64,000 bases of DNA from Trypanosoma brucei (lineage: Eukaryota). Both the position numbers and the translations under genes were made by a program. Shown here in pieces: positions 9,030 to 47,230 of the stretch; within the stretch, counting starts at the first letter, position 1; each line of letters opens with the position of its first letter. Under the pieces are notes generated by a model that did no database searches, had not been told where the DNA came from, and saw only the letters and a list, made by a program, of their open reading frames with translations. The stretch covers positions 800,001 through 864,000 of the forward strand of contig CM000208.1 in NCBI GenBank assembly GCA_000002445.1. The letters are read 5' to 3'.

Positions 9030-9450
9030 TCATACGCTAGATGCAGCGGTGACCGTTTTGTCTTCATACCTTTCTTTATTCGTTCACTTTATGACCCTTA
9101 TTACTGCTGAGCTCATCGTTCTATAAGCTGCATGGAGCTTGCTGGAGTTGACCAGTAAAAAATTTTGCTTTCCTTATTTTCATGAGGGTGAAGACGCAGA
9201 AAGACGTAGAGGAACTGTATTCTTCCTTTTTCACCTGTGAACTGTTCTTTGAACTCTGTTTGTGGTGTAGCAAGCGGTTTACGACGAATTACTGTTGCAT
9301 AAATCTGGTGTTAAGTTCAAACCCCTAAGTCACTTTTAAAGAACTCTAATATTCAGGAAAGCGATATTCTGCGAGCGACTCCGTTGCTGCTGTCCGTGTA
9401 GTTGACGAAATTTAACGTATTAGGGCTTGCAGGGGTTCTCGACGCACTCA

Positions 9451-11547
9451 ATGGAGGGAAAGAGCGTAGTAGGTGGTTCTCACAAACTTGCTGATGGGAG
9501 TTCTTCCTGCGGCACGATTGGCGCAAACCCGGGTTATGCCGGTACAAGCACCCCGTTGGATGCCAGTTCTTCGTTGTATTTTGGGAAGGTAGTAGAGGAT
9601 GCCGTACCTGTGAGAGTTGAAGTTGGAGAAACCACCACACGACACACCGATCCACAGGGTGCGTCCGTTCCTCTGACCAGGAAGGCAACCGCTAAGGACC
9701 GTATAGCAGTAGAAAAGACATCGGATTTCGTATTTTGCGACGAATGTGGTCAAAACATTCCAGTCTCCGAGTGGGCGGATCACCGTGAACATCCGCGAGT
9801 GGTGGAACATGTTACCTCATGGGTGGGTAGATTGAACAAATTATTGATTCGTCTTTTCATCGATTTTTTCATGTGGGTGCTCATGAATATTTACTTTCGG
9901 GAGGTTGTGGTGGTTAACGAAAAGAGCATTCCAAAAACTGGTGGTGTTGTGTTTTATGGTAACCATCAGAATCAGTTTATCGATGCTATGATGATCCGTG
10001 CAAACTGCGGCAGGCCCGTGCGATTCGTTATGGCGGAGAAGTCGTTTCAGAGACCGATCATCGGTCTCTTCGGCCATATGACGGACGCAGTGCCGGTTAT
10101 AAGGCCGCAGGATGCTCCTCTCAACTCTGGTGAGGGGCGTCTTATTCGCATGGATGGAGATATGATTTATGGGGAGGGTACAAAGTTTACAATGTGTCTT
10201 TCCGACAGGGATGTCATAATATGGTACAGAGAGGATGTAAAGTGCACCGCACAGGTTTTGAAGATAAACTCTGACACGGTGCTGCAGTTAACTATGCCCG
10301 TTGCGGCATGTGATGCGGTGACTAAGCCTGTGGGGTTTCAAGTGTCTCGGCGCATCGACCACTCTGAAATGTACGCCAGCGTTTATCAGACGCTTCAGAG
10401 TGGGCAATGCATCGGCATCTTCCCAGAGGGTGGGTCGCATGACCGCACATCGCTGCTACCTCTCAAGGCAGGTGTCGCTTTATTTAGTCTCGGAGCGGCG
10501 GTGCGTGGCATAGACGTCAAGGTTGTGCCGTGCGGACTAACCTACTTTTACGGCCACAAGTTTCGCAGTCGGGCTCATGTTGAATTTGGCGAACCAATTA
10601 CACCCTCGGCGGAGGTTGTGGCGCTTTTCAACACTGACAAACGCAAGGCCACTGGCATTTTTTTGGAGCAACTAAACGAAGAACTACGCGGCTTTACCAT
10701 AAATGTGCCCAATATGAGTGCCCTAAACTTTCTTCATGGATTTCGACAGCTGTATCAACCACAAAATTGTATTTTGGCGACACGGGATCACCTACGTCTG
10801 ACGCGCCGTCTTAGTGTAATTATGGAGGAACAAAAGGGTAACCCAGAATTCATTGACTATCGAAGTAGAGTAGAAAACTATCAGGATTACTGTAATGCAC
10901 TGCTTGTTCGTGATAGCCAAGCGGCGACACTGGGGAAATTGGGATCTAATGAAGCGCGACAGCTTCACTTGATGTTTCGAAGGTGTTTTACTCTATTTTT
11001 GATGGGTGTTATTTTGGTACCGTTCTTTGTTGTTGGGCTCCCCATCGGTATTTTAGCAAAATCCTTATCTGAGAGGCACCGCAAGAAGGCCCTTTCGCAG
11101 AGTAATATAAAGATTGTAGGCACCGACGTAATGGGCTCGTACAAACTCATTGTAGGTTTTATCAGTGTGCCTGTCGTATTCTCAATTGTCTCAATTATCA
11201 CATACGTGTACACCGATCTCCGTACTGCGTTAACAGTCTCAGTTTGCCTTCCCATGACAATGTACGTTTCTCTGCTGATTCTCCAGGAGGCCGCAATTGA
11301 AATGCGAGCCGCTCTGCCCCTCTTCATGTCGTTGATATCCAAACACAAACAGTTTTGTAAACTGTACGAACGACGCCGTGCTTTAGTGGCATTGACTAAG
11401 GTGCTCGTGAAAAAGTGGGATCCCGAGTTAGAGGAGGAGTTGCAGCATTACGTACAGGAGTCTAAGCAGAGCATGAAACTGCGTGAACCGTCATTGTTTT
11501 CCTTGCGGCACGGCGGGCTGCGCCGGCTTGCGGATATCAAAAATTGA
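9451..11547 (+). CDS. Glycerol-3-phosphate / dihydroxyacetone-phosphate acyltransferase (GPAT/DHAPAT family, yeast SCT1/GPT2-like), putative
   Basis: Track start 9427 is TTG and the first ATG is 9451. Acyltransferase motif I 'GNHQNQFIDAMM' (H-x4-D) and motif III 'IGIFPEGGSHDR' are present. C-terminal hydrophobic segments (VILVPFFVVGLPIGILA and FISVPVVFSIVSIITYVY) are consistent with a membrane-bound GPAT. Confidence 0.75.
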   Translation: MEGKSVVGGSHKLADGSSSCGTIGANPGYAGTSTPLDASSSLYFGKVVEDAVPVRVEVGETTTRHTDPQGASVPLTRKATAKDRIAVEKTSDFVFCDECGQNIPVSEWADHREHPRVVEHVTSWVGRLNKLLIRLFIDFFMWVLMNIYFREVVVVNEKSIPKTGGVVFYGNHQNQFIDAMMIRANCGRPVRFVMAEKSFQRPIIGLFGHMTDAVPVIRPQDAPLNSGEGRLIRMDGDMIYGEGTKFTMCLSDRDVIIWYREDVKCTAQVLKINSDTVLQLTMPVAACDAVTKPVGFQVSRRIDHSEMYASVYQTLQSGQCIGIFPEGGSHDRTSLLPLKAGVALFSLGAAVRGIDVKVVPCGLTYFYGHKFRSRAHVEFGEPITPSAEVVALFNTDKRKATGIFLEQLNEELRGFTINVPNMSALNFLHGFRQLYQPQNCILATRDHLRLTRRLSVIMEEQKGNPEFIDYRSRVENYQDYCNALLVRDSQAATLGKLGSNEARQLHLMFRRCFTLFLMGVILVPFFVVGLPIGILAKSLSERHRKKALSQSNIKIVGTDVMGSYKLIVGFISVPVVFSIVSIITYVYTDLRTALTVSVCLPMTMYVSLLILQEAAIEMRAALPLFMSLISKHKQFCKLYERRRALVALTKVLVKKWDPELEEELQHYVQESKQSMKLREPSLFSLRHGGLRRLADIKN

Positions 11548-40003: not shown

Positions 40004-40585
40004 AGGTCTTGTATTTGTATTTTCGCAGTGGTGTAGTGGTGGATGTTGTAGGGATGAGAGAGGTGATGCAGGGAAGTGAAACAAAGGCCAATCTGCGTTA
40101 TTGTTGCGCCTTACTCTCACCTGTGAATACTGTTCGGGTTGTTTTTGTTTTGTGAAGCAACACCTTTCAGCACCTATTATTTACCTCCGACCCATTTGGT
40201 GGAACCGGCAGCGGAATGTAACGGCACATTACATTTTTTTGTTTTTGCGCAATCACAAAGGACTTTCTTGTATCTTTCACTGCTTTTCTTTTTTTGGACC
40301 CGACTCTTCTTCTCCCTTACACTCTTTACGATATCTTTTTTTTTTTCGTTTTTCTGGTTTCCGTTCTGTAAATAACCTTCAAATTGACTTTTCGCTAATA
40401 TTGTGCCTTTCAGCTGAGGAAAACCACCGAAAGAAAGGGGAAGGGAGGACACGTCAAGAAGAGAAGAATAGAAGGTAAAGGCTCGTAAAAACAAAGTTGC
40501 AAATAATACATAGCGTGTGACGTAGGCAAGCCGCAGAGTAATCATCGGCGAGTCGCAATCGCACGTTGTTTAAAGAACAAAAAAA

Positions 40586-42697
40586 ATGGGTGGCTGCGTT
40601 GCATCCCTTATTGAGAGCAGAAACACAAAATCTCTTGTCGATAACGATGACATTCTGCAATACAACAAACTGCCATGCCAAATCCGTGTAGTTGCGGGAA
40701 CAGAACGGGAGGATGCATCACCGGTCTACCGTAAGTTTGACGTTACTGATGAGGATTTCGAAAAGATGTCACATGATGCGTACCATGGGGAGCCACTAAT
40801 ACAACTAATCCGTGAGATTTGTGGGCTACGGGGGGAGAAGGTTGCAATGGCCTACCGCAATATGCAGCGGGTAGAGAGAAATGTGGTGAAGGATGCGAGC
40901 GGCAAGTCAAAAACGATGGATATGTATGTTTTCTCACCGGGGCGCCGAAATATAAGCTATAAGCAGCTTTGGGAAACCGTCGAAAATTTTTCTAAAGGTC
41001 TCTGTGAAATTGGGCTTCAGGAGCGACAATGCCTTGCTCTGTTTGAAGAGACGCGTTGGGAGTGGTATGCGTCGTTGCTTTCCGCCTGGTGCCACAACAT
41101 GATTGTGGCAACAGTGTACGCCAATCTGGGTGAGGATGCACTCCGTTACGCGTTAAGGGAAGCTCAATGCGGCTGCATCATCTGTAACGGGAAGAATGTC
41201 CCCGTACTCCTTGACAAAGTGAAGTTGAAAGAAATGGGAAATCCAGTGGTTATTTACTTGGATGATTTACCCACTAACGTAGATATTATGGACCTAAGGG
41301 TGTACAAATGGTCTACCGTGGTGGAGATGGGTGCGAAGAGCGAAAAGGCTCAGTTAAACATCCCAACTTGTGAAAATTGTGATGATACCGCTCTTATCAT
41401 GTACACAAGCGGCACTACGGGGGATCCAAAGGGTGTAGTGCACACACACGGAAGCCTTGCTAGTGGCGTCTATGCGCTCAGCATTCGACTGTCCGAAGTA
41501 TTTGGTGACCCACGAGATGACGAAACGTACTGCTCGTACCTTCCTTTGGCCCACATTATGGAACTGGCTGTGCTGTCAATCCTTATGCTCAGGGGATGCC
41601 TCATTGGTTTCGGTTCTCCTCGAACAATTACCAACACTTTTTCTAAACCACACGGTGATTTGGTCGAATATCGACCGTTTGTTCTCTCTGCTGTCCCGCG
41701 TGTGTTCGATACCATTAAAAAAAATGTTGAGGCAATGCTACCCAGTCCCGGGTCAATAAAGCGTACAGTCTTTGAAAGGGGATATCAGGCCCGTCTCAAG
41801 GCTCTGAGGGATGGGAAGGAGACTCCCTACCTCAATGAAAAAGTTTTCAATAAGGTCCGTCAGGCAACAGGTGGGAATGTGCGGCTTTACTTTTCTGGTG
41901 GGGCGCCACTGTCTCCAGCTACTCAGGAGTTCATCAACGTGGTACTGGGGACTGTTATTCAGGGTTGGGGCCTAACGGAGACTGTGTGTTGTGGAGGGAC
42001 TCAGTTCCCAGGCAGCCTCGAGTCCGAAAGTATTGGTCGGATGATCGACACTGTGGAGTTGCGCCTTCTCGACACTCCCGAATATCGGCATACGGATAAA
42101 CCAGAACCTCGTGGAGAAATTTTGTTGCGCGGGCCATTCCTCTTTAAAGAGTATTACAAACAGAAGGCCCTGACGGAGGAGGTTATTGATTCCGAGGGAT
42201 GGTTCCACACGGGTGATGTTGGCTGCGTTTCGAAAAACGGTACCTTGCGCATCATTGGTCGCGTGAAGGCCCTTGTAAAGAATTCCAACGGCGAGTATTT
42301 GGCTTTGGAGTCCTTGGAGGCCACTTACGGGCAAAACAAGTTGTGCACACCAAACGGCGTGTGTGTGCTCGTTCATCCACAGCGCAGTTATATAGCTGCA
42401 CTGGCCCTCACAACAGAGCAACTTATCATGCCCTTCGCAAAGGAGCATAAAATCCGCGGAACATATCCCGAGATACTCGAAAATGTTGAACTCCGCAAGA
42501 AGGTGTGTGAATCATTTCAAGAAACTGGAAGGGCCGCTGGAAAGAAAAGCTTCGAAATTGTGCGGGACGTGCGCCTACTGAGTGATGAATGGACCCCAGA
42601 AAATGGGGTTCTAACAGCGGCCGCCAAGTTGAAGAGGCGAATCATTGATGAACGTTACAAAGAACTGATCGAAGAGATATTCCGCAATGATGTTTGA
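40586..42697 (+). CDS. Long-chain fatty acyl-CoA synthetase (ANL superfamily), with an N-terminal MGGC acylation signal
   Basis: True ATG. AMP-binding motif 'YTSGTTGDPKGVVHTHGS', 'GWGLTET', 'WFHTGDVG', 'GRVKALVKNSNGEYL' and C-terminal 'AAAKLKRRII' are typical of eukaryotic LACS. The N-terminus is 'MGGCVAS'. Confidence 0.85.
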   Translation: MGGCVASLIESRNTKSLVDNDDILQYNKLPCQIRVVAGTEREDASPVYRKFDVTDEDFEKMSHDAYHGEPLIQLIREICGLRGEKVAMAYRNMQRVERNVVKDASGKSKTMDMYVFSPGRRNISYKQLWETVENFSKGLCEIGLQERQCLALFEETRWEWYASLLSAWCHNMIVATVYANLGEDALRYALREAQCGCIICNGKNVPVLLDKVKLKEMGNPVVIYLDDLPTNVDIMDLRVYKWSTVVEMGAKSEKAQLNIPTCENCDDTALIMYTSGTTGDPKGVVHTHGSLASGVYALSIRLSEVFGDPRDDETYCSYLPLAHIMELAVLSILMLRGCLIGFGSPRTITNTFSKPHGDLVEYRPFVLSAVPRVFDTIKKNVEAMLPSPGSIKRTVFERGYQARLKALRDGKETPYLNEKVFNKVRQATGGNVRLYFSGGAPLSPATQEFINVVLGTVIQGWGLTETVCCGGTQFPGSLESESIGRMIDTVELRLLDTPEYRHTDKPEPRGEILLRGPFLFKEYYKQKALTEEVIDSEGWFHTGDVGCVSKNGTLRIIGRVKALVKNSNGEYLALESLEATYGQNKLCTPNGVCVLVHPQRSYIAALALTTEQLIMPFAKEHKIRGTYPEILENVELRKKVCESFQETGRAAGKKSFEIVRDVRLLSDEWTPENGVLTAAAKLKRRIIDERYKELIEEIFRNDV

Positions 42698-43673
42698 TGT
42701 TTTCCTCCTTTTTACTTTTTTTTTGTCACTTCGTTATTTATTTTACGTTTGCGACTTTTCTCACTTCGTTTCTTTGGTCTCATTTTTTTTGTTTTCCCAT
42801 ATTACCTCTCCCTCACCTCTACCAAACTATTCTTTTCCTACCCTTTTTTTCACCTCATCTTTCATTTTCATTCAACTTCATTTTCGCCTTCTCCGAAATC
42901 TACTTTTTTTTCCCCCTCTCTCGTTTCATCGCGTTTTGTTTTTCTCGTCTTTTCGATTATCGTACTTGTACTAATGAGTCAAGTGGTTTGCTGTTACGTT
43001 TCTTTGCATTTGTAAAACCGTGTGTGCGTATGCGATTACCTTCCTACCGTTTCTCCTCCTTCACTGATTCTTCTTTTTTTTTTGTTTCACCCCTTCGATT
43101 CCACCCTTTCACTGTACCAATGCCACACATGTGGTGGCGAGATGCTCATTTTTTCTTTTTTGTTGAGAGTTGTGCCTGTCCCACCCGCGGTTCTATTTTT
43201 TTTTGTTTCTTACCCCCTTTTTTTCTTTTTCTTTATTGCCTTCATTTTTTCGTACCTTTACTTTGATTTTTTTTTCTTCTTTCGGTTACCGACAGGCGGA
43301 AAGTTAACTTTCTTCTCCATTCATCCTTCTGTTTCCCCCCTTATCTTTGCGTTGCTTCACATCATTCGTTGCGCGTAGTGTATGATTATTTATTTATATA
43401 TGATATATGTAAAGATGGGAAGGTGAAGGTGCCTGCTCGCGTTTTTCAAAGGAAAAAAAATAAATAAAAGGGAAGAGAACTTCAATTAACTTTTTTTCTC
43501 ATTTGTTCGTAAACCGTTTGCATTCATAGGGGGTTGCATGTGGCAGGTCACTAAAGATATGACGCAGGGAGAGAAAAAAAAAGGGGAAGGTTTGTATGTA
43601 AAACTGCTGAGGTGAAGGAAAGAAACTAAATTAATATTGAAAAGAGAGAAGCCTTAGGGGAAAAAGGGAATTG

Positions 43674-43692
43674 AGAGAGAGAGAGAGAGAGA
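43674..43692. repeat. (GA)n microsatellite
   Basis: 'gagagagagagagagagag' in the LACS downstream region. Confidence 0.9.
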
Positions 43693-44665
43693 CAACTGAG
43701 AGATGAATTAATACTGGAAAGAAATACTACAAGCGTACACACACGTGCAAAGAAAAAAAAGAAAAAAAAGAAGGAAAGGTTCGTGGGTTAGAGTGATCAA
43801 CTCTGAAACCAGGGAGGCAACTGGGGAAAACGTGATTTACCTTTTTTTTTTTTTGTTTTCCCTTCCCACCATTTCTGTTTGTTAGCAGCAGTGGATTCAC
43901 CAAATGGTCACGGGAATCATAGTGTGAGTAGTGACAAAAAAAACGGATAAGAAAAAGAAAACAGATGAATCAAATGCAATTAGAAGAAAAAAAAAAGGCA
44001 AAGGTGAGAGGAAAGAACCATATTTGAGAAATACCATAAGTGATAATGTTGTGCATGGTTTATTCTTATTCTTCTTCCGTGGTTCCTCTTCTGTAAATAT
44101 GGAGGGTGATTAGTAACGAGAAAAGGGAAACATATGGAGTGACGGAGGAAAATGTGCGGAAGGGGGGTGTTTATATACATATATTATTTTGCTTTCGTTA
44201 GAGGTTCGCTCAAGAAGAGGATGAGTGACTTCAACTTTCACAATGTACACACGTTGCAATCGTTGTGTCTGATGATGTCACTTGGGGGGGGGTTTTAGGG
44301 AGAGGTGAGGAGAGGACGTGGACGAAAAAGAGTAGTGTTGCTTAACCACGGTGTTGGGTTACCCACTACCATAACTGTTCCCTTTTGTTTTGTTTTTGTG
44401 GTTTAGCCTCTTTACGCCCTTTTTTTTCCCCCTACTTTTTCATGTTCATTATTTTGTCCTGTATAATTTTTTTCCCCGTCGAGCACTAACTCGTGCATCC
44501 ATGTACATGTGTGTGCATGTGCATATATATATATATATATATATATTGTTAATTTATATACGGCAATAAATCCCTTAAGTACACGCTAATATGATGACTT
44601 GTCTTCTCTTTTAGTCCTTCCTGTTACCCAAATGTTTACGGCGACTTTTAGTGTTGCTGAGGGCC

Positions 44666-45099
44666 GTGTGTGTATACGTCTGTGTGTGTGTGCGTGTGAT
44701 CGAAAGGATGTTGAGAGGAAGATGATTAAGGGAATTGTAGTGTTTGATTTGTCCGGTTGTTGGGCTCCTCCATCTTTTTTCAGAAGCCCATACCTGAGGT
44801 AATTACAAAAGTGGGAGAGGGCTGGCACCACTGGGACACAAATACACACACACACACACACACCTCGTACAAATACAACCACAAACGCCAATGTGAAGTT
44901 GACGGCATCCGAAGAGGCGTGAGATGGATATGAAGAGACTACCGTAATCATAGGTTTGTTTGTTTGTTTTTTTAGGTATGAATGTTCTTTTCCTTCTTCC
45001 ATTGCAGCGCTGTGTGTAGGTGAGGTGATGGAAACAGTCACCACGTGGTGTTTGTGTTTGTACGAGGTGTGTGTGTGTGCGTGTGTGTGTGTGTGTGTG
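44666..45099. repeat. Cluster of (GT)n, (CA)n and (GT)n microsatellites arranged as inverted repeats
   Basis: Imperfect (GT)n at 44666-44699, (CA)n at 44844-44863, and (GT)n/(GTGC) at 45067-45099. The (CA)n and the distal (GT)n are reverse complements about 200 bp apart. The minus-strand ORFs translated here (HTHTHAHTH...) are artefacts. Confidence 0.85.
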
Positions 45100-45393
45100 C
45101 ATGAGGAGGAAGGAGGACACTTGGTTCCCGTGACAACGCACACATGAACCCCCTAACAGATTTTTTGTGTGTGCGCAAAAACGCAGGGACACTGTATGAA
45201 TTTTACTACATAAATATCATGAGCTCACTGTTTTTGTGCTTCACATTTCTTCCTTTTACTGTCTTTCCTCCATGAAACATGCATCCTTATTGTTGGAGCC
45301 TATTAACTTGCGTAATTTTCACTGCACTGCATCCCTCTACGTTTTGCAGGTTTTATACACCGTAGACATCTTGTTTTCTTACGCTGACGGAGC

Positions 45394-45858
45394 ATGTTGA
45401 GGCGTGTCCGTCCACTTCGCGCTTGGAACAACCGCCAACACAGTGATAGGGAGCGTGACCGCATTGCCCGGGAGCGGCAGCGGCATATTCTGTACGACAA
45501 CGCCGGTAATGTGAAGCTGTATGGTATCTTGTTTCTGTTGTGGGAGGAATTCCGTGTTCCCATTATTGCAGTAGCCACAGGTTTCTTTGTTTTGCTCGCA
45601 TATAATAAGATTGTGCTGTATTACTCCGCACGGCAGCTAGCTGGTGAGCGGGAGCTTGATCAAAAGAGCGAGTCGGAGGCGAGGCTTTCTGGAAAACTCA
45701 AGGGTGATCGTTATTTGATCAAACCGTGGCGACAAGTCGAGGACCCCGACTTTTTAAACATCCCATCATACGCAGGTAAGGGAGTGTACTCAAGCAAATT
45801 ATTTGAGGATGACGTGGCAAGCACCGACCCACTTTTCAGTGAGCGACGCCGAAACTGA
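45394..45858 (+). CDS. Hypothetical single-pass membrane protein (154 aa)
   Basis: True ATG with poly-Y upstream. A basic N-terminus (RERDRIARERQR) is followed by one TM 'LYGILFLLWEEFRVPIIAVATGFFVLLAY'. Confidence 0.45.
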   Translation: MLRRVRPLRAWNNRQHSDRERDRIARERQRHILYDNAGNVKLYGILFLLWEEFRVPIIAVATGFFVLLAYNKIVLYYSARQLAGERELDQKSESEARLSGKLKGDRYLIKPWRQVEDPDFLNIPSYAGKGVYSSKLFEDDVASTDPLFSERRRN

Positions 45859-46546
45859 GCGTGTGTGAAGTCATTACGAAGGCAATGTGAAGGAGAAGTT
45901 GATGTGTGACCACATACGCAAATACAGTGGCGACGGGAACCATAACCAAGTGAGCACAGTTTCGCGTCTGTGCTGCCGTCCCGAATAAGTTATATCATCA
46001 TATCTGCTTACGATGTGTTGTGCAGGGATTTTTATTTGTTAAGTTTATAGCGGTATCAAATATCTGTTATTATTATTATTATTATTATCGTCATTTCATT
46101 CATCTTGGGTGTGACGGCGTGGACCTCCCGTACAATAACGGGAGGGGCGTGGGAATGACGGGGAGCTCCCTCGCCTTCCCACTCGTGGTCTTTATTTTCT
46201 TGGTGATTCCCGAGTTGTGCGCGTCAGTAGATCCGAGTATCGTTCGTTAGTTGTACATTTGCAACGTGTTCCTCACATTTGTTTTTTTTTCCGCACTTGT
46301 TGGCCGTAGAGGAGGAGTGTTTATGCCATTACGGGTACTTGTACGTTGCTTCACAGCAGCACTTTTCTACTTCCGCCCTCTAAGATGTAGGCCCCATGCG
46401 TTCATTCCTGTCTGCTGATTCATACACATTACCTCGATACCAATAAGATTGTCGTAACAGTTTCCAACATTTACTTTTTTTTTTTTGTTTTATTTTATTT
46501 TTACTGCATGATTTAAACAGAGAAGCACCATTGCGAAGAAGGACAG

Positions 46547-46795
46547 ATGCCCCGAGAGATCAAGAACCTCAAGGAGTTCCTCGCCATTTGCAGCCGTAAG
46601 GACGTCCGCTGTGTGAAGGTTAAGCACAACCCAAAGGTAACCAAATTCAAGGTACGCTGCAGCCGCTACCTTTACACCCTCGTGATGGCTGACAAAAAGA
46701 AGGCTGACAAGATCGAGCGGTCCATTCACCCGACTGTGAAGAAGATAACCGTCACTGCTCGCTCCCACGCCAAGAAGAACACACCAAGCAAGTAA
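46547..46795 (+). CDS. RPL38: 60S ribosomal protein L38 (eL38)
   Basis: True ATG. 82 aa '[57 protein letters not shown]' aligns along its length with eukaryotic eL38 ([60 protein letters not shown]). The overlapping minus-strand ORF 46490..47197 is spurious. Confidence 0.9.
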
Positions 46796-47230
46796 GTTGT
46801 ACGACTCCGTGCGCTGGGTGGAATTATAGGGGGATGAAGGAAGAGCCGAGCAAAGTTTCACAATGGAGTGCTTTTGTAACCATAACCCATGGACGGTTGC
46901 TCTTTCCTTCGTCACCAAGAAAGTGGCACGCTTCTCAATCAATAGTTGCTTCGTTTTTTCCTTTTCCGTACTTTTTTTTTGTTTCATTTGAAAAATGAGT
47001 ACATTACTGTATTCAATCCCCACATCCCCTTGTCGATGTGCCCCTCTCTGTTCGCCTACACCAAATGGGCAGTACTTGTGCATTTGGTGACGCTCTGTGT
47101 TACTCTCACCTGGCGTTTTTGTCATTTCTTTTTTTCTCCTTTTCCATTCAACTATGGAACATGCCGCCTTCGGGTTCGTTTTATTAAAGTGCAGCACACT
47201 TTCGCCCGCAGGAACAAGCGGGATTTTATT

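What the first reader, a model, noticed from the sequence alone, without database searches (positions are those of the whole stretch)
40586..42697. Long-chain acyl-CoA synthetase with an N-terminal MGGCVAS dual-acylation signal
Gly2 is followed by a small residue at position 6, and Cys4 fits the consensus for N-myristoylation plus adjacent palmitoylation. In trypanosomes this combination targets proteins to the flagellar or plasma membrane, as with calflagins. This would place fatty-acid activation at a specific membrane, possibly linked to myristate remodelling of GPI anchors.
Basis: partly seen in the sequence, partly recalled or inferred. Interest (0 to 1): 0.5.

Follow-up and report, generated by a model that had tools for sequence, protein, structure and literature searches.

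The report
Lipid-anchored trypanosome fatty acyl-CoA synthetase (LACS5)
This is the already annotated Trypanosoma brucei acyl-CoA synthetase LACS5, whose conserved MGGCVAS start very probably takes two lipid anchors that hold the enzyme on the cell-surface membranes; public data already point to this, so it is correct but ordinary.

Summary
Window 40586-42697 (+) is a 703-aa ORF starting MGGCVASLIESRN. It has an AMP-binding domain and the long-chain acyl-CoA synthetase signature motifs. It is 100% identical to T. brucei TREU927 "fatty acyl CoA synthetase, putative" (Tb927.10.3260, LACS5/ACS5).

The MGGC cannot be buried: an in-frame TAA lies 15 nt upstream, and this ATG is the first ATG after the predicted splice-acceptor AG.

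The motif is not a chance feature of one gene.
- All 10 full-length Trypanosoma orthologues start MGGC.
- Of 120 kinetoplastid ACS homologues, 99 have Gly2 and 78 have MG.C.
- About a third of the 147 distant-homologue cluster representatives carry an N-terminal transmembrane-like segment instead. This protein has none.

Published data agree.
- The T. cruzi orthologue was enriched by azidomyristate, and the L. donovani orthologue by YnMyr.
- Leishmania MGGCV paralogues carried a probe-modified N-terminal Gly and a predicted palmitoyl-Cys4.
- C-terminally tagged LACS5 (TrypTag) sits on the flagellar pocket membrane, pellicular membrane and ER. The N-terminally tagged protein is cytoplasmic/nucleoplasmic.

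Still untested: palmitoylation of Cys4 in this protein, true flagellar targeting, and any link to GPI myristate remodelling. Verdict: real, largely already known, modest interest.

The parts
40586..42697 (+). Complete CDS (703 aa plus stop) of the T. brucei long-chain-type fatty acyl-CoA synthetase LACS5/ACS5 (Tb927.10.3260)
   Evidence: The ORF is listed. It is 100% identical over 100% of its length to 'fatty acyl CoA synthetase, putative [T. brucei brucei TREU927]' on a 4.05 Mb contig. The gene ID and name come from PMC9719944 and PMC6117152.
40586..40606 (+). Codons 1-7, M-G-G-C-V-A-S: predicted dual-acylation signal (Met1 removed, Gly2 N-myristoylated, Cys4 S-palmitoylated)
   Evidence: Sequence. 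The PROSITE PS00008 pattern is met. MGGC is kept in 10/10 full-length Trypanosoma orthologues, with 0.93 mean column identity for residues 1-7. The family-wide motif is MGGCVxS.
40571..40573 (+). In-frame TAA stop, 5 codons upstream of the ATG
   Evidence: Translation (...V*RTKKMGGC...) and sequence. This excludes any upstream in-frame start.
40283..40347 (+). Three polypyrimidine tracts (40283-95, 40304-18, 40334-47): predicted trans-splicing signal
   Evidence: This is inferred from the usual kinetoplastid rule (polypyrimidine tract followed by the first AG). No RNA data were available.
40412..40413 (+). First AG downstream of the polypyrimidine tracts: predicted spliced-leader acceptor, giving a 5'UTR of about 172 nt with no upstream ATG in any frame
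   Evidence: there is no ATG between 40250 and 40585, so the MGGC ATG is the first AUG of the predicted mRNA.
40925..42157 (+). AMP-binding (ANL adenylate-forming) domain, residues 114-524
   Evidence: Pfam PF00501, E=9.7e-71. The AlphaFold model has mean pLDDT 86, and its best PDB matches are ANL enzymes at E down to 5e-42.
41396..41431 (+). ATP/AMP signature motif IMYTSGTTGDPK (residues 271-282)
   Evidence: Regex match. These are the lowest-entropy windows of the family alignment and are invariant columns in A1.
42197..42268 (+). Fatty acyl-CoA synthetase (FACS) signature GWFHTGDVGCVSKNGTLRIIGRVK (residues 538-561)
   Evidence: Regex match. G538, T542, G543, D544, R559 and K561 are invariant in A1.

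Best explanation
The ORF is T. brucei LACS5, an ANL-superfamily long-chain-type fatty acyl-CoA synthetase. It has no transmembrane segment. Its first seven residues, MGGCVAS, most likely act as a dual-lipidation membrane anchor.

Proposed steps:
1. Methionine aminopeptidase removes Met1.
2. N-myristoyltransferase attaches myristate to Gly2 during translation.
3. The weak myristate-driven membrane contact lets a DHHC palmitoyl-acyltransferase S-acylate the neighbouring Cys4.
4. The double anchor holds the enzyme stably on the cytoplasmic face of the flagellar pocket and pellicular plasma membrane, and on the ER en route.
5. Incoming or membrane-released fatty acids are therefore converted to acyl-CoA at the membrane (vectorial 'trapping').

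What is shown: the ORF, the motif and the start codon; the enzyme family; strong conservation of Gly2 across the family and of Cys4 in Trypanosoma; capture of orthologues by myristate analogues; and a localisation that depends on which end is tagged.

What is inferred: that NMT and a DHHC palmitoyl-acyltransferase (PAT) actually modify this protein, that Cys4 is palmitoylated, and the physiological role of membrane placement.

The anchor is ancestral to the kinetoplastid ACS family. Functionally it takes the place of the N-terminal transmembrane helix found in many other eukaryotic long-chain ACSs.
For: The start is fixed:
- An in-frame TAA lies 15 nt upstream.
- The ATG is the first ATG after the polypyrimidine tracts and the first AG.
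- Residues 37-50 (PGTE..AS.IYR) upstream of the next Met (M61) are conserved as protein.

The motif:
- PS00008 is met, with Cys two residues after Gly2.

Conservation:
- MGGC is present in 10/10 full-length Trypanosoma orthologues, and residues 1-7 are more conserved than the next 100 residues.
- In the full family alignment, residues 1-7 have mean entropy 1.46 bits. Residues 8-36 have 2.70, residues 51-113 have 2.51, and the catalytic domain has 1.55.
- In clades defined from the catalytic domain alone, 22/25 members of the LACS5 clade keep Gly2.

No alternative anchor:
- The maximum 19-residue Kyte-Doolittle mean in the first 120 residues is 0.68, so there is no transmembrane segment. About 55 of 147 distant-homologue cluster representatives have an N-terminal transmembrane-like segment.
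- There is no PTS1 or PTS2.

Experiments in relatives:
- T. cruzi orthologue K4E1L2 (MGGCVTSMM..., the same N-terminal sequence and 703-aa length as P0007) was enriched by azidomyristate pull-down (p=0.003, log2 difference 6.5). It was modestly reduced by the NMT inhibitor in SILAC (PMC4974623 supplement).
- L. donovani orthologue LdBPK_030220.1 was YnMyr-enriched in both life stages, and both predictors were positive (PMC4372256 supplement).
- A YnMyr-modified N-terminal Gly was detected on two L. donovani fatty acyl-CoA ligases.
- Cys4 of the MGGCVVS paralogues scored strongly in the palmitoylation prediction table of that paper's supplement (2.9 and 2.5 against a cut-off of 1.2).

Localisation in T. 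brucei (TrypTag, quoted in PMC9719944):
- LACS5 with a C-terminal tag is at the flagellar pocket membrane, pellicular membrane and ER. With an N-terminal tag, which blocks Gly2, it is in the cytoplasm/nucleoplasm.
- ACS1 (MGMYVT, no Cys) is cytoplasmic with either tag. ACS2 (MNTAS, no Gly2) with a C-terminal tag is at the ER.
- The T. brucei flagellar membrane is described as enriched in dually acylated proteins (PMC5617996).
Against: - I could not read any direct acylation data for the T. brucei protein. The T. brucei lipidation proteome (Wright et al. 2016, PMC4906374) and the palmitoyl proteome (Emmer et al. 2011) are not held.
- Position 6 is Ala, not the optimal Ser/Thr. One orthologue has Glu6 (T. 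rangeli) and another has Val6.
- The 2007 TriTryp bioinformatic survey listed no T. brucei fatty acyl-CoA synthetase among its high-confidence NMT substrates.
- In L. donovani, YnMyr labelling of the ACS paralogues did not respond clearly to NMT inhibition.
- Leishmaniinae orthologues lack Cys4, so palmitoylation is not essential to the orthologue group.
- AlphaFold predicts residues 2-16 as a helix with pLDDT about 75. A structural role could therefore contribute to the conservation.
- TrypTag data come from a high-throughput screen in procyclic forms, and the review says the localisations remain to be confirmed.
Confidence: 0.68

Rival explanations
1. The protein is myristoylated only. Gly2 is myristoylated, but Cys4 is not S-acylated in vivo. 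Membrane contact is then weak or reversible and is helped by the N-terminal helix or by partner proteins. Cys4 is conserved for some other reason.
For: - Leishmaniinae orthologues have lost Cys4 and instead have a textbook MGxxxS myristoylation motif.
- TrypTag reports a mixed location that includes the ER.
- No palmitoylation data exist for this protein in the material I could read.
Against: - Cys4 is kept in 10/10 full-length Trypanosoma orthologues and in 78/120 family members across paralogues of about 45% identity.
- The palmitoylation prediction table in the supplement of PMC4372256 scores Cys4 of the MGGCV paralogues well above its cut-off.
- From general knowledge of SH4-type signals, a single myristate rarely gives stable plasma-membrane residence.
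- S-acylation by the probe would explain why YnMyr labelling of these ACSs is insensitive to NMT inhibitor.
Confidence: 0.15
2. The protein is not lipidated. The conserved N-terminal heptapeptide is the start of a structural helix that packs on the N-terminal domain or mediates protein-protein contact. Membrane association comes from substrate or lipid binding or from a partner. An N-terminal tag mislocalises the protein simply by disturbing this helix.
For: - AlphaFold predicts helix 2-16 at moderate confidence.
- Position 6 is non-canonical in much of the family: V/I/L in 50/78.
- T. brucei ACSs were absent from the 2007 high-confidence NMT substrate prediction.
Against: - The T. cruzi and L. 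donovani orthologues were enriched by myristate analogues.
- A probe-modified N-terminal Gly was observed directly on two Leishmania family members.
- Gly2 is the most conserved non-Met residue of the N-terminal extension (entropy 0.56 bits). That pattern is typical of NMT substrates and is not needed for a helix.
- The helix has a low hydrophobic moment (0.14).
Confidence: 0.08
3. N-terminal acylation is real but at least partly independent of NMT. The enzyme's own product (acyl-AMP or acyl-CoA) or a PAT first acylates Cys4, and the acyl group then migrates to, or is placed directly on, the free Gly2 amine. This would be self- or product-driven lipidation.
For: - L. donovani MGGCV ACSs carried a YnMyr-modified N-terminal Gly but did not respond clearly to NMT inhibition. 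The authors themselves raised 'a mechanism distinct from NMT'.
- The family conserves Ser7 rather than the NMT-critical position 6.
Against: - The simpler explanation is additional S-acylation by the probe at Cys4, or labelling at the active site.
- The T. cruzi orthologue did fall on NMT inhibition in one SILAC comparison.
- The L. donovani orthologue is rated 'reliable'/'high' by NMT predictors.
- As far as I know, there is no precedent for long-range S-to-N transfer across Gly-Gly in cells.
Confidence: 0.05
4. The annotated start is wrong and translation begins elsewhere (upstream, or at Met61), so MGGC is never an N-terminus.
For: Nothing positive. I considered it only because start codons in trypanosome gene models are sometimes misassigned.
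Against: - There is an in-frame TAA 15 nt upstream.
- There is no ATG in any frame in the predicted 5'UTR, and no polypyrimidine tract between 40413 and the ATG.
- Residues 1-60 are conserved at the protein level in all orthologues, and full-length orthologues have the same 703-aa length.
Confidence: 0.02

Closest known systems
T. cruzi K4E1L2 / TCSYLVIO_004512 and L. donovani LdBPK_030220.1 (orthologues of LACS5)
   Same: - They fall in the same clade on the catalytic domain alone and have the same length.
- The Leishmania gene has the same neighbourhood, next to the P5C-dehydrogenase-type aldehyde dehydrogenase.
- Both start with MG.
- Both were captured by myristate-analogue chemical proteomics.
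   Different: - The T. cruzi protein has Thr6 (MGGCVTS), a more canonical NMT site.
- The Leishmania protein has lost Cys4 (MGGAVSFC), has gained Ser6, and has a Cys at position 8 instead.
T. brucei ACS3/ACS4 (Tb927.9.4210/4230) and the Leishmania chromosome-1 ACS array (LdBPK_010490/010510)
   Same: - About 51% identity.
- The same MGGCVxS N-terminus.
- ACS3/4 is the membrane-associated ACS activity of bloodstream forms.
- The Leishmania members were YnMyr-labelled on the N-terminal Gly, with predicted palmitoyl-Cys4.
   Different: - They are a different paralogue clade.
- Their position 6 is hydrophobic (I/V), whereas LACS5 has Ala.
- ACS1-4 have measured chain-length preferences, while LACS5 is enzymatically uncharacterised.
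Calflagins and other dually acylated kinetoplastid membrane proteins (for example HASPB, CAP5.5, PPEF)
   Same: An N-terminal Met-Gly followed by a nearby Cys. The general rule is that myristate plus palmitate gives stable association with the surface or flagellar membrane. The flagellar membrane is enriched in dually acylated proteins (PMC5617996). PPEF dual acylation is described in PMC1885993.
   Different: - Those are small Ca-binding, structural or signalling proteins with MGC-type motifs. This is a 78-kDa metabolic enzyme with an MGGC motif.
- The reported LACS5 location is the flagellar pocket and pellicular membrane plus ER, not the flagellum proper.
Long-chain acyl-CoA synthetases of other eukaryotes that are anchored by an N-terminal transmembrane helix (mammalian ACSL type; this comparison is from my own knowledge)
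   Same: - The same ANL fold, P-loop and FACS signature.
- The same logic of placing fatty-acid activation on a membrane.
- About 55 of 147 distant-homologue cluster representatives show an N-terminal transmembrane-like hydrophobic segment.
   Different: The kinetoplastid enzymes have no hydrophobic segment (maximum Kyte-Doolittle mean 0.68). They carry a lipidation motif instead, which makes the anchor post-translational and potentially reversible.

Membership tests
[quoted passage not shown] | AMP-binding (adenylate-forming) domain | tested here: met
   Pfam PF00501, E=9.7e-71, 239 bits against a cut-off of 29.9, residues 114-524. [quoted passage not shown]
[quoted passage not shown] | ATP/AMP P-loop signature and the FACS signature motif (GW.HTGD...L.I..R.K) | tested here: met
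   IMYTSGTTGDPK at 271-282, WGLTE at 461, GWFHTGDVGCVSKNGTLRIIGRVK at 538-561, and the C-terminal catalytic-Lys region LTAAAKLKR at 676. These columns are invariant in alignment A1.
[quoted passage not shown] | Two-domain ANL fold | tested here: met
   AlphaFold model with mean pLDDT 86.1 and pTM 0.76. Foldseek PDB hits at E values of 5e-42 to 1e-29 to CAR A-domains, luciferases, Drosophila long-chain ACS 7kyd and Thermus LC-FACS 1ult.
[quoted passage not shown] | [quoted passage not shown] | not testable with these tools
   Recombinant ACS1-4 were assayed (Jiang and Englund, cited in PMC9719944). LACS5 is described as uncharacterised.
N-myristoyltransferase substrates | Gly at position 2 of the true translation product | tested here: met
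   GGT at 40589-91 directly follows the ATG. An upstream start is excluded by the TAA at 40571-73. The ATG is the first ATG of the predicted mRNA. The start itself is inferred, not mapped by RNA data.
N-myristoyltransferase substrates | Permissive residues at positions 3, 6 and 7 (PROSITE PS00008: G-{EDRKHPFYW}-x(2)-[STAGCN]-{P}) | tested here: met
   GGCVAS matches the pattern. Ala6 is allowed but is not the preferred Ser/Thr. Across MG.C family members, position 6 is V/I/L in 50/78 and Ser7 is present in 71/78.
N-myristoyltransferase substrates | Myristate (or analogue) detected on the protein, sensitive to NMT inhibition | not testable with these tools
   Evidence exists only for relatives. 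T. cruzi orthologue K4E1L2 was enriched, with a modest drop on inhibitor. L. donovani orthologue LdBPK_030220.1 was enriched, with no inhibitor data. The paralogue LdBPK_010510.1 had an N-terminal YnMyr modification but an unclear inhibitor response. The T. brucei data set (PMC4906374) is not held.
Dually acylated (myristoyl + palmitoyl) kinetoplastid membrane proteins (calflagin type) | Cys within a few residues of the myristoylated Gly | tested here: met
   Cys4 (TGC, 40595-97). It is conserved in 10/10 full-length Trypanosoma orthologues and in 78/120 family members, but it is lost in Leishmaniinae orthologues.
Dually acylated (myristoyl + palmitoyl) kinetoplastid membrane proteins (calflagin type) | Thioester-linked palmitate demonstrated on that Cys | not testable with these tools
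   The only evidence is the palmitoylation prediction scores for Cys4 of Leishmania MGGCV paralogues, in the supplement of PMC4372256. The T. brucei palmitoyl proteome paper is not held.
Dually acylated (myristoyl + palmitoyl) kinetoplastid membrane proteins (calflagin type) | Surface or flagellar membrane localisation that needs a free N-terminus | not testable with these tools
   Literature only. TrypTag places the C-terminally tagged protein at the flagellar pocket membrane, pellicular membrane and ER, and the N-terminally tagged protein in the cytoplasm/nucleoplasm (PMC9719944). This is consistent with a membrane anchor. The flagellum proper is not reported, so it does not behave like calflagin in that respect.

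The most novel reading that the evidence does not exclude
The kinetoplastid long-chain ACS family carries a self-referential lipid anchor. Membrane attachment of the enzyme depends on the very acyl-CoAs it produces: myristoyl-CoA for Gly2 and palmitoyl-CoA for Cys4.

Part of the N-terminal acylation may also be NMT-independent. It could be driven by the enzyme's own acyl-AMP or acyl-CoA through Cys4, followed by transfer to the Gly2 amine. That would explain two observations. The family conserves MGGCVxS with a non-canonical position 6. And Leishmania members kept their N-terminal YnMyr label under NMT inhibition.

The anchor would then act as a feedback sensor that couples acyl-CoA supply to the amount of ACS at the uptake membrane.
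Probability: 0.06. Interest if true: 0.7.

Novelty: already known. Interest (0 to 1): 0.27.

Why it matters
T. brucei lacks FATP and CD36-type fatty-acid transporters (PMC9719944). Membrane-resident acyl-CoA synthetases are therefore leading candidates for trapping host fatty acids, including the myristate needed for VSG GPI anchors.

A lipid-anchored LACS5 at the flagellar pocket and pellicular membrane would be well placed for that role. It would also be one of the metabolic clients whose mislocalisation contributes to the lethality of N-myristoyltransferase inhibitors, which are a validated drug-target class.

However, the gene, its family-wide MG(GC) N-terminus, the capture of its orthologues by myristate probes and its tag-dependent localisation are all already in public data. 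What remains is a confirmatory experiment, not a discovery. The modest added value of this analysis is threefold:
- the motif is ancestral to the whole kinetoplastid ACS family;
- it stands where other eukaryotes have a transmembrane helix;
- Trypanosoma kept Cys4 while Leishmaniinae orthologues swapped it for a canonical Ser6.

Tried and rejected
- **Upstream start burying MGGC:** rejected. There is a TAA 15 nt upstream in frame.
- **Downstream start at Met61:** rejected. Residues 1-60 are conserved as protein, and the predicted 5'UTR has no ATG and no internal polypyrimidine tract.
- **Alternative anchors or targeting signals:** no transmembrane-like segment and no PTS1 or PTS2.
- **Amphipathic-helix anchoring:** the hydrophobic moment of residues 2-16 is low at 0.14, so this is unlikely on its own.
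- **Non-coding RNA or repeat explanations for the locus:** no Rfam family reaches its gathering score anywhere in the window. The only tandem repeat is a (GT)16 far downstream.
- **Literature I could not reach:**
  - The T. brucei lipidation proteome (Wright et al. 2016, PMC4906374, doi 10.1021/acsinfecdis.6b00034) and the palmitoyl proteome (Emmer et al. 2011) are not held. Direct T. brucei acylation data could therefore not be checked.
  - Full-text searches combining palmitoyl proteome, trypanosome and ACS terms, and Leishmania, CoA ligase and myristoylation terms, gave nothing useful.
  - The lipid-raft proteome paper does not mention ACSs in its main text.
- **Peptide search:** searching the L. 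donovani supplement for GGCV as a word start failed. It worked with 'anywhere' matching.
- **GPI-remodelling link:** I found no evidence for or against it, so it stays as speculation.
Full report
**1. What is in the sequence**

One search lists one ORF at exactly 40586..42697 on the + strand. It is 703 aa and begins MGGCVASLIESRNTKSLVDN. From, the ATG is at 40586-88, Gly2 at 40589-91, Cys4 at 40595-97, Ala6 at 40601-03 and Ser7 at 40604-06.

An in-frame TAA lies at 40571-73, with only four sense codons before the ATG. No upstream start can bury the MGGC.

Upstream there are three polypyrimidine tracts (40283-40347). The first AG after them is at 40412-13. There is no ATG in any frame between 40250 and 40585, and no further polypyrimidine tract before the ATG. 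Under the usual kinetoplastid trans-splicing rule (an inference, since I had no RNA data), the MGGC ATG is the first AUG of an mRNA with a 5'UTR of about 172 nt. The next in-frame Met is residue 61. Residues 1-60, including a PGTE..AS.IYR block at 37-50, are conserved as protein in all orthologues.

**2. What the protein is**

- Pfam AMP-binding scores E=9.7e-71 over residues 114-524.
- NCBIfam fatty-acid-CoA ligase models match at about 1e-50.
- The ATP/AMP P-loop IMYTSGTTGDPK (271-282) and the fatty acyl-CoA synthetase signature GWFHTGDVGCVSKNGTLRIIGRVK (538-561) are present. They fall in invariant columns of the family alignment.
- An AlphaFold model built on a 32-sequence alignment (mean pLDDT 86, pTM 0.76) matches ANL enzymes in the PDB at E values down to 5e-42.
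- The protein is 100% identical over its full length to 'fatty acyl CoA synthetase, putative' of T. brucei brucei TREU927, on a 4.05 Mb contig.
- Two papers name the gene: Tb927.10.3260, ACS5 or LACS5, described as uncharacterised (PMC6117152; PMC9719944).

The window is a single + strand gene array. An aldehyde dehydrogenase lies about 8 kb upstream. This mirrors the L. donovani order LdBPK_030190 (P5C dehydrogenase) then LdBPK_030220 (long-chain ACS), seen.

**3. Is the N-terminal motif more than chance?**

A single MG.C.[small] start is not rare. My rough estimate from residue frequencies is 1-2 per 1000 proteins. It is the only such start among the 22 long ORFs of the window; the only other MG start, MGIVRVQRP, fails the pattern. 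Conservation is what carries the argument.

- All 10 full-length Trypanosoma orthologues (54-75% identical overall) begin MGGC. For them, mean column identity is 0.93 for residues 1-7, 0.67 for residues 8-60 and 0.60 for residues 61-113.
- Among 120 kinetoplastid and bodonid ACS homologues, 99 have Gly2, 78 have MG.C and 69 have MGGC.
- In the full family alignment, residues 1-7 have the same low entropy as the catalytic domain (1.46 against 1.55 bits). They sit in front of a variable N-terminal extension at 2.5-2.7 bits.
- Among the 147 other cluster representatives in the 50%-identity library search (mostly 31-40% identical to the query), only 18 have Gly2 and 3 have a nearby Cys. About 55 have an N-terminal transmembrane-like hydrophobic segment. 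The query has none: its maximum 19-residue Kyte-Doolittle mean in the first 120 residues is 0.68.

I therefore read MGGCVxS as an ancestral feature of the kinetoplastid ACS family. It stands where many other eukaryotic long-chain ACSs have a transmembrane helix.

**4.

The family consensus is M-G-G-C-V-x-S. Among MG.C members, Ser7 is nearly invariant (71/78). Position 6 is the classical NMT Ser/Thr position when Met is counted as 1. It is variable in this family and is V/I/L in 50/78. LACS5 has Ala6, which PROSITE PS00008 allows but which is not optimal.

I defined clades from the catalytic domain only, so they are independent of the N-terminus.
- In the LACS5 clade, 22/25 members keep Gly2. 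The three exceptions look like truncated gene calls.
- Trypanosoma and Strigomonas keep Cys4.
- Leishmaniinae orthologues read MG[AQ]AVS..: Cys4 is lost and a canonical Ser6 is gained, with Cys8 in Leishmania proper.
- One paralogue type has lost Gly2 altogether. It includes T. brucei ACS2 (MNTAS...) and the MDTPSY group.
- T. brucei ACS1 is MGMYVT, with no Cys.

**5. Experimental evidence in the literature I could read**

- *T. cruzi.* The N-myristoylome study lists 'Fatty acyl CoA synthetase 2' (K4E5P0, MGGLIST) among proteins enriched in at least two experiments (PMC4974623). Its supplement also shows the direct orthologue of our protein, K4E1L2/TCSYLVIO_004512. This is 703 aa and starts MGGCVTSMMERQNERSLVDF, the same N-terminal sequence and length as P0007. 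It was significantly enriched by azidomyristate in one experiment (p=0.003, log2 difference 6.5). It was modestly reduced by the NMT inhibitor DDD85646 in SILAC.
- *L. donovani.* The orthologue LdBPK_030220.1 (MGGAVSFCLQ) was YnMyr-enriched in promastigotes and amastigotes, and both predictors were positive. No usable inhibitor data exist for it (PMC4372256 supplement).
[quoted passage not shown] Cys4 of the MGGCV paralogues scores 2.9 and 2.5 against a cut-off of 1.2 in the palmitoylation prediction table.
- *T. brucei.* A 2022 review tabulates TrypTag data (PMC9719944).
  - LACS5 with a C-terminal tag is at the flagellar pocket membrane, pellicular membrane and ER. With an N-terminal tag it is in the cytoplasm and nucleoplasm.
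  - ACS1 is cytoplasmic with either tag.
  - ACS2 with a C-terminal tag is at the ER.

The tag-dependent behaviour is what a free-N-terminus lipid anchor predicts.

I could not read the T. brucei lipidation proteome (Wright et al. 2016) or the palmitoyl proteome (Emmer et al. 2011). The T. cruzi supplement shows that at least ACS3 (Tb927.9.4210) is in the former data set.

**6. Most likely mechanism**

My confidence in this mechanism is about 0.68.
1. Met1 is removed.
2. NMT myristoylates Gly2 during translation.
3. A DHHC acyltransferase palmitoylates Cys4 at a membrane.
4. The double anchor retains this otherwise soluble enzyme, which has no transmembrane segment, on the cytoplasmic face of the pocket and pellicular membrane.
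5. Fatty acids are thio-esterified there as they enter.

Shown here or in cited data: the ORF, start, motif and family; the conservation; probe capture of orthologues; and the tag-dependent localisation. Inferred: the identity of the modifying enzymes, palmitoylation of Cys4 in this protein, and the physiological consequence.

**7. Rivals**

- Myristoylation only (0.15). Leishmaniinae do without Cys4.
- No lipidation, with a structural N-terminal helix instead (0.08). AlphaFold predicts helix 2-16 at pLDDT about 75. Against this stand the probe data on relatives and a low hydrophobic moment.
- Partly NMT-independent or self-driven N-terminal acylation (0.05). This is prompted by the inhibitor-insensitive Leishmania labelling and the non-canonical position 6. 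Probe incorporation at Cys4 explains both more simply.
- A wrong start codon (0.02). This is effectively excluded.

**8.

The identification of the enzyme and of a dual-acylation-type N-terminus is right, and membrane targeting is well supported by public data. Three parts are not supported:
- The reported localisation is not flagellar in the calflagin sense.
- The family conserves Ser7, not position 6.
- The proposed link to GPI myristate remodelling has no evidence. LACS5 substrate preference is unknown, and ACS1, ACS3 and ACS4 already activate myristate.

**9. Novelty and interest**

The gene is annotated. Its orthologues are already in published myristoylome data sets. Palmitoyl-Cys4 was already predicted for paralogues in published supplementary tables. 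A public localisation resource already shows the expected membrane pattern.

I file it as already known. No dedicated G2A/C4A study of this protein turned up in the material I could search, so that remains a gap.

Interest is modest (0.27). It is a sensible, testable detail of trypanosome lipid-uptake biology and NMT-inhibitor pharmacology, not a surprise.

Noticed in passing
window 40586-40606; homologues P0001-P0120: The family motif is M-G-G-C-V-x-S. Ser7 is nearly invariant (71/78 of MG.C members). Position 6, the canonical NMT position, is V/I/L in 50/78. This is unusual for NMT substrates. It may relate to the NMT-inhibitor-insensitive YnMyr labelling of Leishmania ACSs reported in PMC4372256.
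   Followed up: partly
homologues P0013-P0026, P0035 (Leishmaniinae orthologues of the window gene): Within the LACS5 clade, Trypanosoma keeps Cys4 (MGGCV[ATEV]S). Leishmaniinae orthologues read MG[AQ]AVS..: Cys4 is lost and a canonical Ser6 is gained, with a Cys at position 8 in Leishmania proper. This looks like a lineage-specific switch from a dual-acylation motif to a myristoylation-only or shifted-Cys motif.
   Followed up: partly
window 42698-46900: A stretch of about 4.2 kb downstream of the ACS stop codon has no ORF of 200 aa or more (the longest are 190 and 185 aa). It contains a (GT)16 microsatellite at 45067-45099. It is probably an unusually long 3'UTR or intergenic region. I did not examine it further.
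   Followed up: no
window 9427-11547 (+): An ORF with a PF01553 acyltransferase domain (glycerolipid acyltransferase type) lies in the same + strand gene array, about 30 kb upstream of the acyl-CoA synthetase. Kinetoplastid polycistrons are not operons, so co-location is probably coincidental.
   Followed up: no
window 1-64000: All 22 ORFs of 200 aa or more that start with ATG lie on the + strand, forming one directional gene cluster. No Rfam family reaches its gathering score anywhere in the window.
   Followed up: yes
distant homologues P0124, P0187, P0235-P0237: A few non-kinetoplastid relatives also start with lipidation-type N-termini: MGGCISCCDGCC, MGAGCVAGC, MGNSFSS, MGASASN and MGGSQSV. 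About a third of the representatives have an N-terminal transmembrane-like segment. Lipid anchors seem to have arisen repeatedly in long-chain ACSs. The source organisms are unknown because the library carries no names.
   Followed up: no
window 40589-40633 (residues 2-16): AlphaFold predicts the extreme N-terminus (residues 2-16) as an alpha-helix with pLDDT about 75, not as a disordered tail. Its hydrophobic moment is low (0.14). I could not inspect whether it packs on the N-terminal domain.
   Followed up: partly
homologue P0015 (Neobodo transcriptome, 1031 aa): A bodonid homologue with the same MGGCAIS start is about 330 residues longer than the rest of the family. Only 43% of the query is covered by the best local alignment. 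It could be a fusion or a mis-assembled transcript.
   Followed up: no
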